In this document: piece by piece, positions 31,755-34,391 of the stretch
Layout of the letters: each line of letters starts with the position of its first letter
Position numbering within the stretch: the first letter of the stretch is position 1
Assembly: GCF_011045215.1 (NCBI RefSeq)
Contig: NZ_CP049201.1
DNA from: Escherichia coli
Lineage (GTDB): Bacteria; Pseudomonadota; Gammaproteobacteria; Enterobacterales; Enterobacteriaceae
Length of the DNA: 64,000 nt
Direction: 5' to 3' (one strand)
Notes under the pieces: generated by a model
What the model was told of the DNA's origin: nothing
Databases searched by the model: none
The model's input: only the letters and a program-made list of their open reading frames with translations
Position numbers and translations under genes: made by a program

Positions 31755-32882
<1,128 letters not shown>

Positions 32883-33322
32883 TTATGTTGGCGTTTTCTA
32901 TTCAGTATAGAAGTCGGAGCGGCTGGGCGAGATGCGGAAGTTCTGGAATGTTTCTTTTTTTGGTGATGGTGAACTGATGGTGCCTGAAGCAATTTGGCTA
33001 CTTTTGCAATGTGACAAGTTATGGCACGGCTGGCTGGTGGCGAAGAATTTTGACGATTGAGGCATGTAGAAAAAACGGGCTCAGCTTCAGTTGATTAAAT
33101 GAGGAGTGAGAAGTCCGAAACAGGATTTACTGTATAAATAAACAGCCATTTTGTTGAGGAAGGGTAAGATAACGGCGGGTGCCTGAAGCTTTCCGGTTTC
33201 AGGTTTACTCTGAGGTCTGGAAAGATGAAGCCCCAGGAGATATTTCTATCAACCCTGGGGCTGCCACTCCAAACCAGACAATTTGGATGGTAGTTCCTTC
33301 TTCGCATGGAGGCAATATAAAC

Positions 33323-33475
33323 ATGCTGACGAAATATGCTCTTGTGGCAGTCATAGTGCTGTGTTTGACGGTACTGGGATTTACGCTTCTGGTCGGAGAC
33401 TCGCTGTGTGAGTTTACGGTGAAGGAACGTAATATTGAGTTCAGGGCTGTTCTCGCTTACGAACCGAAGAAGTAG
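33323..33475 (+). CDS. hokE: Hok-family type I toxin HokE (small membrane peptide)
   Basis: 50-aa product [50 protein letters not shown]; an in-frame upstream-extended ORF (33179-33475) is consistent with a mok-like leader frame. Confidence 0.85.
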
Positions 33476-33596
33476 CCGTTGTGCGGGGAGTAATCCCCGC
33501 ATATCCGGTTGTCAGGTCAGGATGGTAAGGCACCTGCTTTACACTTTCGCCCGCGGTCAGTGATGGCTGCGGGCGAATCGTACCAGATGTTGTCAA

Positions 33597-34226
33597 TTAA
33601 TCGTGTTGGCACAGAGTTATGACTATTTTTTCTTTTATCTGCCAGTGCACAGCAAACATCTCATTCTCACGATGAATGATGACCTGCTGTTTATTCCAGC
33701 TAATTATCTGATAGTCCAGAAAACCTGCATCAGTTTGGATCTCACTTGCCTTAAATGCGCTCTCTTTGGCGGAAAATGCCAGTGTCAGCGCCAGAGAAAA
33801 GGCTAAACCGCAGTCTGCGAGTCGCTCGTGTTCTGCTGGTGTAATAATGTTGTCTGTCAATTCGGTCGCTGTTTGCGCAGAAAAAATTTCTTCGATATCA
33901 ACGCCAATCGGTTGACGGGAAACCACGGCCAATGCCGTAGCCCCGCAGTGGCTAATACTGCCGTATACCTCCGCAGGCCACACCGGTTGGCGTAGCTCGC
34001 CGATTGTGGGCACACATTTATAGCCATATTCCCGCAAGGCATAAACAGCAGCGATCCGTCCGGCTAAATGCTCTGTTTTACGTTTACGTCCAGCGTGTTG
34101 CAGTTGTGCGTAGTGCGGCAGCCAGAGTAAATCCTGCTCACAAAAATTCGCCGGATCGAACTCAACAAAATGCAGCGTATGTCCGGCAAAGGGGAGGGAG
34201 GTATGCGTAGTTTTCATATCGACCAT
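33597..34226 (-). CDS. entD: Enterobactin synthase phosphopantetheinyl transferase EntD
   Basis: 209-aa product from MVDMKTTHTSLPFAGHTLHFVEFDPANFCEQDLLWLPHYAQLQHAGRKRKTEHLAGRIAAVYAL... Confidence 0.9.
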   Translation of the reverse strand: MVDMKTTHTSLPFAGHTLHFVEFDPANFCEQDLLWLPHYAQLQHAGRKRKTEHLAGRIAAVYALREYGYKCVPTIGELRQPVWPAEVYGSISHCGATALAVVSRQPIGVDIEEIFSAQTATELTDNIITPAEHERLADCGLAFSLALTLAFSAKESAFKASEIQTDAGFLDYQIISWNKQQVIIHRENEMFAVHWQIKEKIVITLCQHD

Positions 34227-34249: not shown

Positions 34250-34355
34250 AAACTGCCTGATGCGCTACGCTTATCAGGCCTACATGGTCCTGCAATATAT
34301 TGAATTGGCAAGATTTTTGTAGGCCGGATAAGGCGTTCACGCCGCATCCGGCATG
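34250..34355. repeat. REP/BIME palindromic elements between entD and fepA
   Basis: gcctgatgcgctacgcttatcaggcctaca and tgtaggccggataaggcgttcacgccgcatccggca are canonical E. coli REP units. Confidence 0.85.
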
Positions 34356-34391
34356 AACGACGCGCACTTTGTCAACAATCTGACGTTAGCA

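What the first reader, a model, noticed from the sequence alone, without database searches (positions are those of the whole stretch)
33179..33596. hokE type I toxin locus, apparently without an IS between hokE and entD
A complete hokE ORF with a mok-like in-frame leader, and a 3' hairpin (tgcggggagtaatccccgca, about 33483-33502), is followed after only ~120 bp by entD. In K-12 MG1655 I recall an IS186 copy between hokE and entD; here there is none. The antitoxin RNA (sok) and the fold-back elements were not mapped.
Basis: partly seen in the sequence, partly recalled or inferred. Interest (0 to 1): 0.3.

Follow-up and report, generated by a model that had tools for sequence, protein, structure and literature searches.

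The report
Intact hokE/sokE toxin locus, IS186-free
This is the ordinary hokE/sokE small-toxin/antisense-RNA locus of Escherichia coli in its uninterrupted form, which about two thirds of sequenced strains carry; the IS186 insertion in laboratory strain K-12 is the derived state and was already described.

Summary
Window 33323-33475 encodes a complete 50-aa HokE (Pfam Hok/Gef). It sits between ybdK and entD, 121 bp from the entD stop, with no insertion sequence. In MG1655 IS186B lies between hokE and entD.

The empty site is the common state. 3,646 of 5,426 complete E. coli genomes have this stretch uninterrupted, and E. albertii, E. whittamii and other Escherichia species also lack the IS.

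I mapped the regulatory parts by homology to plasmid R1 hok/sok:
- LexA box and hok -10 element
- 5' tac element pairing with a 3' fbi element
- ucb/SD-like hairpin and dcb
- SokE gene with its promoter and terminator
- hok SD hairpin
- post-stop stem-loop
- terminal hairpin

- The "3' hairpin" is not the fold-back or terminator element. It is the homologue of the stem-loop that ends the processed hok mRNA, and it is the IS186 target.
- The long in-frame "mok-like leader" from GTG 33179 is an accident of this allele. No R1-position mok start exists.

Inactivation of K-12 hokE by an IS is attributed to Pedersen & Gerdes 1999. Already known; low interest.

The parts
33130..33145 (.). LexA (SOS) box CTGTATAAATAAACAG, overlapping the expected -35 region of the hokE promoter
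   Evidence: It is the only CTGT-N8-ACAG in the 64-kb window (0.45 expected by chance, so the motif alone is not significant). It is invariant in 11 E. coli alleles. hokE is reported as SOS-induced (PMC11951105 and PMC8406316, citing Fernandez De Henestrosa 2000).
33165..33170 (+). Predicted hokE promoter -10 element (TAAGAT); transcription start about 33177
   Evidence: It aligns with the R1-type TATGAT located 6-7 nt before the mRNA 5' end GGCGCUU. The Rfam model starts at 33177. The strict consensus scan did not call it.
33177..33576 (+). Predicted full-length hokE mRNA (about 400 nt)
   Evidence: Colinear with the R1-type hok mRNA. Fold energy is -170.9 kcal/mol, z = -7.2 against shuffles. 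The transcript ends are inferred, not measured.
33177..33184 (+). tac element (mRNA 5' end, GGGUGCCU)
   Evidence: Pairs with 33528-33535 in both the MFE and centroid structures, with pair probabilities 0.88-1.0.
33189..33224 (+). 5' leader stem-loop
   Evidence: Present in the Rfam model and the RNAalifold consensus. Two pairs show compensatory changes across 36 HokE-like loci.
33230..33261 (+). ucb / SD-like (GGGG) hairpin; sense copy of the SokE terminator hairpin (sokT region)
   Evidence: pairs invariant. It aligns with R1 GCCCCGU...ACGAGGC.
33221..33279 (-). sokE antisense RNA gene (59 nt)
   Evidence: Coordinates mapped from the MG1655 annotation b4835. The RNA folds into a strong hairpin followed by CUUCAUCUUU, -33.8 kcal/mol, z = -5.4.
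33287..33315 (-). SokE promoter: -35 TTGCCT (33315-33310), 17-nt spacer, -10 TACCAT (33292-33287)
   Evidence: It occupies the homologous position to R1 TTGCGC-17-TATCCT. It matches 8 of 12 consensus positions, below the scan threshold.
33288..33297 (+). dcb element (UGGUAGUUCC), which pairs with the GGGG region in the truncated-mRNA fold
   Evidence: Seen in the fold of 33177-33506.
33294..33312 (+). Anti-SD (UUCCUUC) / hokE Shine-Dalgarno (GGAGG, 33308-33312) hairpin
   Evidence: RNAalifold alternatively pairs 33294-33304 with hokE codons at 33465-33475.
33323..33475 (+). hokE CDS (50 aa, [50 protein letters not shown])
   Evidence: It differs from MG1655 HokE at A8V and K41R. It is identical to a HokE of Escherichia sp. 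MOD1-EC7003.
33458..33461 (+). UACG motif at Tyr46 codon (TadA A-to-I editing site, Tyr to Cys)
   Evidence: CTCGCTTACGAA is invariant in 36 loci, including synonymous positions. hokE mRNA is reported as 40% edited (PMC12214031).
33482..33501 (+). Post-stop stem-loop TGCGGGG-AGTAAT-CCCCGCA; homologue of the 3' stem-loop of processed hok mRNA; empty IS186 target site
   Evidence: IS186B of MG1655 sits in its loop, with duplication GGAGTAATCC. The hairpin is conserved, with compensatory pairs, in 36 loci. R1 data show that this stem protects the truncated mRNA from 3' exonucleases (PMC9841398).
33528..33535 (+). fbi element (AGGCACCU), complementary to the mRNA 5' end
   Evidence: It lies 52 nt after the stop codon, within the family range of 43-69 nt. 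The window-only duplex is weak statistically: 93 of 1000 shuffles do as well.
33547..33576 (.). Terminal G+C-rich hairpin (12 bp), presumed 3' end of hokE mRNA; faces the convergent entD
   Evidence: No U tract follows on either strand, and the terminator scan is negative. Its function is inferred from its position relative to the R1 terminator.
33597..34217 (-). entD (convergent neighbour)

Best explanation
Window 33130-33576 is the chromosomal hokE/sokE type I toxin-antitoxin locus of E. coli in its uninterrupted, ancestral configuration.

How it most likely works, inferred by homology to plasmid R1 hok/sok:
1. A LexA-controlled promoter makes a ~400-nt hokE mRNA from about 33177 to the hairpin at 33547-33576.
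2. The mRNA 5' end (tac, 33177-84) pairs with the 3' fbi element (33528-35). This holds the mRNA in a closed form that is neither translated nor bound by SokE.
3. Slow 3'-exonucleolytic trimming stops at the stem-loop 33482-33501. That removes fbi and lets the leader refold (the GGGG region pairs with dcb).
4. The short antisense SokE RNA (33279 to 33221), made from its own TTGCCT-17-TACCAT promoter, then pairs with the leader and triggers decay.
5. If SokE runs out, the 50-aa membrane toxin HokE is translated.

In K-12 and about a third of sequenced strains, IS186 has landed in the loop of the 33482-33501 stem-loop. This GGGG-N6-CCCC site splits the hairpin and detaches fbi and the terminal hairpin.

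Shown here: the identity of the locus, its synteny, the IS186 position, the conservation of the elements, and the predicted pairings. Inferred: transcription ends, 3' processing, SokE action and toxicity of this allele.

The confidence of 0.85 is for the statement as a whole. The identity of the locus and the IS186 story are about 0.97; the R1-like regulatory mechanism is about 0.6.
For: Identity and synteny:
- Pfam Hok/Gef hit and Rfam RF01794 hit at 80 bits.
- RefSeq annotates hokE at the same ybdK-entD site.

IS186:
- MG1655 annotation. Alignment puts the IS in the hairpin loop with a 10-bp duplication.
- K-12 hokC carries IS186A in the loop of the homologous hairpin GGCGGGGagtgatCCCCGCC.

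Population:
- 3,646 of 5,426 genomes are uninterrupted.
- 1,874 genomes carry the K-12-type junction.
- The reverse-orientation junction also exists.

Regulatory elements:
- Alignment to an R1-type hok/sok locus.
- The full-length fold shows 5'/3' end pairing with probabilities of about 1 and z = -7.2.
- The truncated fold forms the GGGG/dcb stem.
- SokE folds as a hairpin plus a U-rich tail.
- 54 of 56 hok loci from many genera have an fbi complementary to tac 43-69 nt after the stop. Position 7 covaries as C-G in 16 loci and U-A in 17.
- The 5' hairpin and the post-stop hairpin show compensatory pairs.

Literature:
- R1 mechanism, and protection of the truncated mRNA by its 3' stem-loop (PMC9841398).
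- K-12 hokA, hokC and hokE inactivated by insertion elements (PMC12214031 and PMC2654758, citing Pedersen & Gerdes 1999).
- SOS induction of hokE (PMC11951105).
Against: - No sigma-70 promoter or intrinsic terminator passes the consensus scan in 32874-33640. The terminal hairpin has no U tract.
- The tac-fbi duplex in this allele is only 8 bp (-15.2 kcal/mol), against 11-12 bp in many relatives. Taken alone it is not significant: 93 of 1000 shuffles of the downstream region match it.
- No mok start exists at the R1/hokC position in any HokE-like locus, so the R1 translational-coupling step cannot simply be transferred.
- No expression data were available for this allele.
Confidence: 0.85

Rival explanations
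1. The locus is an intact-looking but functionally decayed relic. Even without IS186 it does not work as an R1-like toxin-antitoxin switch: the toxin is never translated from its own mRNA and the conserved RNA features are residual.
For: - No canonical mok start or SD at the R1 position; GAGG is GGGG in Escherichia hokE.
- The tac-fbi pairing is shortened.
- The frame of the upstream ATG 33225 relative to hokE drifts among alleles (0/+1/+2 in about 13/24/18 of 60 sampled genomes).
- Roughly a third of genomes tolerate IS186 in the locus.
- IS-free chromosomal hokA and hokC were reported inactive in killing assays (bioRxiv 10.1101/2025.08.07.668861).
Against: - The leader, hokE codons, post-stop hairpin and SokE promoter are strongly conserved across about 12 genera, with compensatory pairs.
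- The LexA box is invariant, and SOS induction is reported (PMC11951105).
- hokE mRNA is edited at the conserved UACG site (PMC12214031).
- HokE is toxic when expressed (bioRxiv 10.1101/2025.08.07.668861).
Confidence: 0.3
2. The site was once occupied by IS186 and became empty by precise excision, so the window represents a revertant rather than the ancestral state.
For: IS186 at the lon promoter is reported to excise precisely (PMC3861542).
Against: - The hairpin carries no duplication or scar.
- The same empty hairpin is present in E. albertii, E. whittamii, two other Escherichia species and HokE-like loci of other genera.
- Two thirds of E. coli genomes are empty.
Confidence: 0.03
3. The 98-codon in-frame ORF 33179-33475 (or the ORF from ATG 33225) is a genuine Mok-type leader protein fused to HokE.
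For: - The frame is open from GTG 33179 in this allele.
- K-12 mokC is an in-frame N-terminal extension of hokC.
- ATG 33225 is preceded by GAGG at 9 nt and is conserved in 11 E. coli alleles.
Against: - GTG 33179 is 2 nt from the predicted 5' end.
- One-nt indels at two sites change the frame in most alleles. In this window the ATG 33225 ORF stops at TAG 33291-33293 after 22 codons.
- ATG 33225 is absent outside Escherichia.
- MG1655 annotates no mokE.
Confidence: 0.05

Closest known systems
hokE/sokE of E. coli K-12 MG1655 (b4415/b4835)
   Same: Same ybdK-hokE-entD position. The 5' leader, SokE region, CDS and 3' region are about 97% identical. The LexA box, SokE promoter and fbi element are the same.
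   Different: K-12 has IS186B in the loop of the post-stop hairpin, and the window does not. The window has a 1-nt deletion in the leader (at 33275) and the substitutions A8V and K41R in HokE.
hok/sok of plasmid R1 (and R1-type loci on IncF plasmids, L004)
   Same: The order of elements is the same: -10, tac, 5' hairpin, ucb/SD hairpin, Sok promoter over dcb, hok SD hairpin, hok, post-stop hairpin, fbi, terminal hairpin. The tac/fbi pairing is kept through two compensatory changes (C-G to U-A and U-A to C-G).
   Different: - There is no mok start 8-9 nt after the SD-like box.
- The terminal hairpin lacks a U tract.
- fbi is shorter.
- A LexA box lies upstream.
- The locus is chromosomal, and post-segregational killing has not been shown for chromosomal loci.
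hokC/mokC/sokC of K-12 with IS186A
   Same: IS186 sits in the loop of the homologous GGGG-N6-CCCC post-stop hairpin.
   Different: hokC has a canonical GAGG-N8-ATG mokC start in frame with hokC. hokE has none.
HokE-like loci in Citrobacter, Klebsiella, Kluyvera, Kosakonia, Phytobacter, Atlantibacter and Pseudocitrobacter, and a second E. coli paralog (cysH-iap site)
   Same: MLTKYAL... toxins, the same tac sequence, and the same leader and post-stop hairpin.
   Different: Most have GAGG where Escherichia hokE has GGGG, and a longer fbi (11-12 bp). Their 12-codon leader ORF from the ATG homologous to 33287 is out of frame and ends just inside hok.

Membership tests
Hok/Gef toxin family (Pfam PF01848) | About 50-aa hydrophobic peptide matching the HOK_GEF profile above its gathering score | tested here: met
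   33.3 bits against a cutoff of 22, covering profile positions 1-42 of 42. NCBIfam Hok models match below their cutoffs.
[quoted passage not shown] | cis-encoded antisense Sok gene overlapping the hok leader, with its own promoter and a hairpin/U-rich 3' end | tested here: met
   - Rfam RF01794 hit at 80.2 bits against a gathering score of 59.
- Coordinates mapped from MG1655 sokE.
- TTGCCT-17-TACCAT promoter at the R1-homologous position.
- SokE fold z = -5.4.
- Transcription itself was not tested.
[quoted passage not shown] | 5' tac / 3' fbi end-pairing of the full-length mRNA | tested here: met
   An 8-bp pairing (33177-84 with 33528-35) has probability of about 1 in the fold. It lies at the family-typical distance after the stop codon and shows family covariation. 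Caveat: the window-only duplex is not significant on its own (93 of 1000 shuffles).
[quoted passage not shown] | mok reading frame whose translation is coupled to hok, with its SD sequestered by ucb or dcb | tested here: inconclusive
   The ucb/SD-like and SD-like/dcb stems are predicted, but no start codon follows the SD-like box in any HokE-like locus. ATG 33287 is conserved in 29 of 36 loci. It coincides with the SokE -10 element and has no SD.
[quoted passage not shown] | 3' processing of the full-length mRNA to a truncated, translatable form ending at a protective stem-loop | not testable with these tools
   The homologous stem-loop (33482-33501) is present and conserved. Processing itself needs RNA experiments.
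[quoted passage not shown] | Post-segregational or SokE-depletion killing | not testable with these tools
   Literature reports are negative for other IS-free chromosomal hok loci (bioRxiv 10.1101/2025.08.07.668861).
hokE ortholog (as opposed to other hok paralogs) | Position between ybdK and entD, and an upstream LexA box | tested here: met
   Synteny is shown. The LexA box at 33130-33145 is shown.
IS186 target site | G-run, short spacer, C-run. The published consensus G>=4 N3-6 C>=4 (SaiSree et al. 2001) is recalled from memory because the paper was not readable here. | tested here: met
   GGGG-AGTAAT-CCCC lies at 33485-33498. The actual IS186 insertions in K-12 hokE and hokC lie in exactly this motif. 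The title of the consensus paper is cited in PMC3045373.

The most novel reading that the evidence does not exclude
The conserved post-stop stem-loop of hok mRNAs (GGGG-N4-6-CCCC, present in all 36 HokE-like loci examined) acts as a built-in landing pad for IS186, so that this IS has disarmed hok loci repeatedly. It is found at hokE in both orientations, at hokC, and at the cysH-iap hok paralog, and about a third of complete E. coli genomes are occupied at hokE.

Separately, HokE-type loci lack an R1-type mok and may couple hok translation to a 12-codon leader ORF that starts inside the SokE -10 element, whatever its frame.
Probability: 0.3. Interest if true: 0.3.

Novelty: already known. Interest (0 to 1): 0.1.

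Why it matters
It matters little beyond annotation. The result confirms that K-12 is atypical at hokE and that wild-type alleles keep the fbi element and the protective stem-loop. Experiments on hokE regulation, SOS induction or RNA editing done in K-12 therefore use a truncated locus, and an IS-free allele like this one is the proper substrate. The population figures show how often IS186 uses this hairpin, which extends an observation attributed to a 1999 paper: about two thirds of genomes empty, about one third occupied, both orientations, and at least three hok paralogs hit.

Tried and rejected
- The consensus promoter/terminator scan of 32874-33640 found nothing. The hok and Sok promoters match only 8 of 12 positions or fewer, and the hairpins lack U tracts. 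Promoters were therefore placed by homology only.
- The 20-mer LexA consensus gave no hit at 3 or fewer mismatches (the box has 4). The core CTGT-N8-ACAG motif hits once.
- Pedersen & Gerdes 1999 (PMID 10361310) and SaiSree et al. 2001 (PMC95536) are not held. Their content is cited second-hand or from memory and is marked as such.
- A search for 'mokE' returned only magneto-optics papers.
- ATG 33225 was considered as the mokE start and rejected as a conserved element. It is Escherichia-specific and its frame varies.
- GTG 33179 as a mok start was rejected for the reasons given above.
- RNAalifold on the MAFFT alignment did not recover tac/fbi because the fbi columns are misaligned between subgroups. 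A per-locus duplex search was used instead.
- The reverse-orientation junction count of 1,057 is inflated by other hok paralogs. Evenly spaced sampling suggests only about 300 records at hokE itself.

Full report
**Observation**

The window carries ybdK (31755-32873, minus strand), a 723-bp intergenic region, then entD (stop at 33597-33599, minus strand) and fepA. Within the intergenic region:
- 33323-33475 encodes a 50-aa peptide that matches Pfam Hok/Gef above threshold.
- RefSeq annotates hokE at the same position in thousands of E. coli genomes.
- The distance from the hokE stop to the entD stop is 121 bp.
- No insertion sequence is present.

**The K-12 comparison**

Aligning the window to MG1655 with the IS removed shows that the IS sits in the loop of that same hairpin. 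The flanks read ...GTGCGGGGAGTAATCC | IS | GGAGTAATCCCCGCA..., a direct repeat of about 10 bp (GGAGTAATCC). The window has the unduplicated sequence.

K-12's other copy next to a hok gene, IS186A at hokC, lies in the loop of the homologous hairpin GGCGGGG-AGTGAT-CCCCGCC. Both sites fit a G-run/spacer/C-run target. I recall this as the published IS186 consensus (SaiSree et al. 2001, whose title is cited in PMC3045373), but I could not read that paper here.

**How common is the empty site?**

- A 141-nt probe across the hairpin (33430-33570) is uninterrupted in 3,646 of 5,426 complete E. coli genomes.
- The K-12 hokE/IS186 junction is present at 80% coverage or more in 1,874 genomes. A few of these are hokC-type junctions.
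- A junction with IS186 in the opposite orientation also exists at 100% identity. In strain LS4 the transposase is indeed inverted.
- Evenly spaced sampling of the ranking suggests about 300 records with the reverse junction at hokE itself. The remaining matches are IS186 behind another hok paralog between cysH and a CRISPR array and behind mokC/hokC.
- E. albertii, E. whittamii and two unnamed Escherichia species have IS-free hokE.

The empty site is therefore the ancestral and majority state, and the hairpin is a repeatedly used IS186 target.

**Anatomy**

I aligned the locus to an R1-type hok/sok locus from an IncF plasmid and folded it. In order along the sequence:
- A LexA box, CTGTATAAATAAACAG, at 33130-33145. 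It is the only CTGT-N8-ACAG in the window and is invariant in 11 alleles.
- A -10-like TAAGAT at 33165-33170.
- A predicted mRNA start at about 33177, which is also where the Rfam model begins.
- The 5' eight nucleotides (tac, 33177-33184) pair with 33528-33535 (fbi) in the minimum-energy and centroid folds of 33177-33575, with pair probabilities 0.88-1.0. The whole fold has z = -7.2.
- A 5' stem-loop at 33189-33224.
- A hairpin at 33230-33261 corresponding to R1's ucb/mok-SD stem. Here the SD-like box is GGGG rather than GAGG.
- The dcb element at 33288-33297.
- An anti-SD/SD hairpin that sequesters the hokE GGAGG (33308-33312).
- The CDS, then the post-stop stem-loop, then fbi.
- A 12-bp G+C-rich hairpin at 33547-33576.

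On the minus strand, SokE maps to 33279 to 33221 by transfer of the MG1655 annotation. A TTGCCT-17-TACCAT promoter sits at the position of R1's TTGCGC-17-TATCCT. The RNA folds into a strong hairpin with a U-rich tail.

The strict promoter/terminator scan called none of these elements, and the terminal hairpin has no U tract. The promoters and transcript ends are therefore inferences from homology.

**Family evidence**

A scan of one genome per species for the tac sequence GGGTGCYTGARGCTKTCYG gave 114 stretches of DNA carrying 119 pattern matches, and 56 of those matches are followed by a Hok-like ORF.
- In 54 of the 56, a sequence complementary to tac lies 43-69 nt after the stop codon. In the window it lies 52 nt after.
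- Where tac position 7 varies, the partner varies with it: C-G in 16 loci, U-A in 17, U-G in 5.
- Between R1 and hokE the pairing is kept through two double changes.
- As a caution, the 8-bp duplex in this window (-15.2 kcal/mol) is shorter than the 11-12 bp of many relatives. Shuffles of the downstream 140 nt reach it in 93 of 1000 trials. The support therefore comes from position, family covariation and the global fold, not from the window alone.
- An alignment of 36 HokE-like loci from about a dozen genera and its RNAalifold consensus support the 5' hairpin (two pairs with compensatory changes), the invariant ucb/SD-like hairpin, and the post-stop hairpin (compensatory C-G/U-A at one pair in 12 sequences).

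It is not the fold-back element or the terminator. It is the homologue of the R1 stem-loop just after the hok stop codon. In R1, mutations weakening that stem abolish toxicity because the processed mRNA loses protection from 3' exonucleases (PMC9841398). IS186 in its loop therefore both destroys this stem and separates the hokE CDS from fbi and the terminal hairpin. That is a sufficient rationale for the literature statement that K-12 hokA, hokC and hokE are inactivated by insertion elements (PMC12214031 and PMC2654758, both citing Pedersen & Gerdes 1999, which I could not read).

**The 'mok-like in-frame leader'**

- The 98-codon ORF from GTG 33179 starts 2 nt into the predicted transcript.
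- Two 1-nt indel sites in the leader differ among alleles.
- In a 60-row evenly spaced sample of 5,408 matching records, the net length of the leader segment relative to the window was 0, +1 or +2 in about 13, 24 and 18 rows. The long frame is therefore open in only a minority of alleles.
- ATG 33225 (GAGG 9 nt upstream) is conserved within E. coli. It gives a 22-codon ORF ending at TAG 33291-33293 in this window, an in-frame fusion in K-12, and an out-of-frame overlap in other alleles. It is absent outside Escherichia.
- No start codon follows the SD-like box at the position of R1 mok or K-12 mokC in any HokE-like locus. MG1655 annotates no mokE.
- The only widely conserved upstream ATG is 33287, present in 29 of 36 loci. 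It is in frame, 12 codons upstream, in Escherichia. In 16 other loci it is out of frame: in 14 the ORF ends just inside hok (ATGCTGA) and in 2 it ends 67 nt past the hok ATG.
- ATG 33287 coincides with the SokE -10 element and has no SD, so its conservation may have nothing to do with translation.

Whether hokE has a functional mok is unresolved.

**Mechanism and confidence**

I take the locus to work like R1 hok/sok: a closed full-length mRNA, 3' trimming to the stem-loop, refolding, SokE-triggered decay, and HokE translation only when SokE is lacking. Transcription is under LexA control; SOS induction of hokE is reported in PMC11951105 and PMC8406316.

- The identity of the locus and the IS186 story are essentially certain.
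- The regulatory mechanism is inference, and I put it at roughly 0.6.
- The main rival is that chromosomal hokE is a conserved-looking but functionally decayed switch. Supporting it, IS-free chromosomal hokA and hokC failed in killing assays (bioRxiv 10.1101/2025.08.07.668861), and hokE lacks a canonical mok and has a short fbi.
- Against that rival stand the nucleotide-level conservation across genera, the invariant LexA box, the reported 40% A-to-I editing of hokE mRNA at the conserved UACG (Tyr46 to Cys; PMC12214031), and the toxicity of expressed HokE.

**Novelty**

Everything essential is in the literature or in current annotation: hokE/sokE, its SOS control, IS186 downstream of hokE and hokC in K-12, and IS-free loci in natural isolates. 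The population figures, the reverse-orientation insertion, the third hok paralog hit by IS186 and the frame polymorphism of the leader are small extensions. Interest is low.

**Provenance**

Over 16 kb around the locus, the best complete E. coli genomes are 99.0% identical. At the intergenic region, the best match is strain A30 from a baboon at 99.3%.

Noticed in passing
window 33177-33331 (+): The Rfam family RF01794, named 'sok antitoxin', matches the hok-sense (plus) strand over 155 nt. The annotated SokE of MG1655 is a 60-nt minus-strand RNA. The model therefore describes the hok leader rather than the antisense RNA.
   Followed up: partly
window 33095-33502 (-): A 135-codon ORF runs antisense to the whole hokE leader and CDS. 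PGAP annotates its equivalents in other genomes as an 89-aa 'hypothetical protein' or as a frameshifted pseudogene. Its frame is not conserved, so it is probably spurious.
   Followed up: partly
L003 4215-5220; L092; L106: O157-type E. coli, E. whittamii and Escherichia sp. MOD1-EC7003 carry two tandem hokE/sokE units. The period is about 502 bp and each unit runs from upstream of the LexA box to the terminal hairpin. The two copies are diverged from each other. The window has a single copy that resembles copy 1 internally but has the copy-2 junction to entD.
   Followed up: partly
L127 1690-3500 (E. coli S43); L126 (E. coli LS4): IS186 also sits behind a HokE-like paralog located between cysH and a CRISPR array/iap. 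At hokE in strain LS4 it is in reverse orientation, and there the right flank is an SDR oxidoreductase gene instead of entD, which suggests a later rearrangement.
   Followed up: partly
window 33452-33463: CTCGCTTACGAA around the Tyr46 codon (TAC, 33458-33460) is invariant in 36 HokE-like loci, including synonymous positions. This matches the TadA UACG editing site that recodes Tyr46 to Cys, with hokE reported as 40% edited (PMC12214031).
   Followed up: partly
window 33294-33304 with 33465-33475: RNAalifold predicts a conserved long-range pairing between the anti-SD region upstream of hokE and the last codons of hokE (CGAAGAAGTAG). It is kept in nearly all 36 sequences by invariant or one-sided changes.
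   Followed up: no
window 34276-34363: There are Rfam hits to ES036 (40.5 bits, above its gathering score) and naRNA4 (a REP-type palindrome, below its gathering score) in the entD-fepA spacer.
   Followed up: no
window 32932-33060 (+): A 42-codon ORF between ybdK and the hokE LexA box is annotated as hypothetical protein WP_032280461.1 in strain A30. It was not examined further.
   Followed up: no
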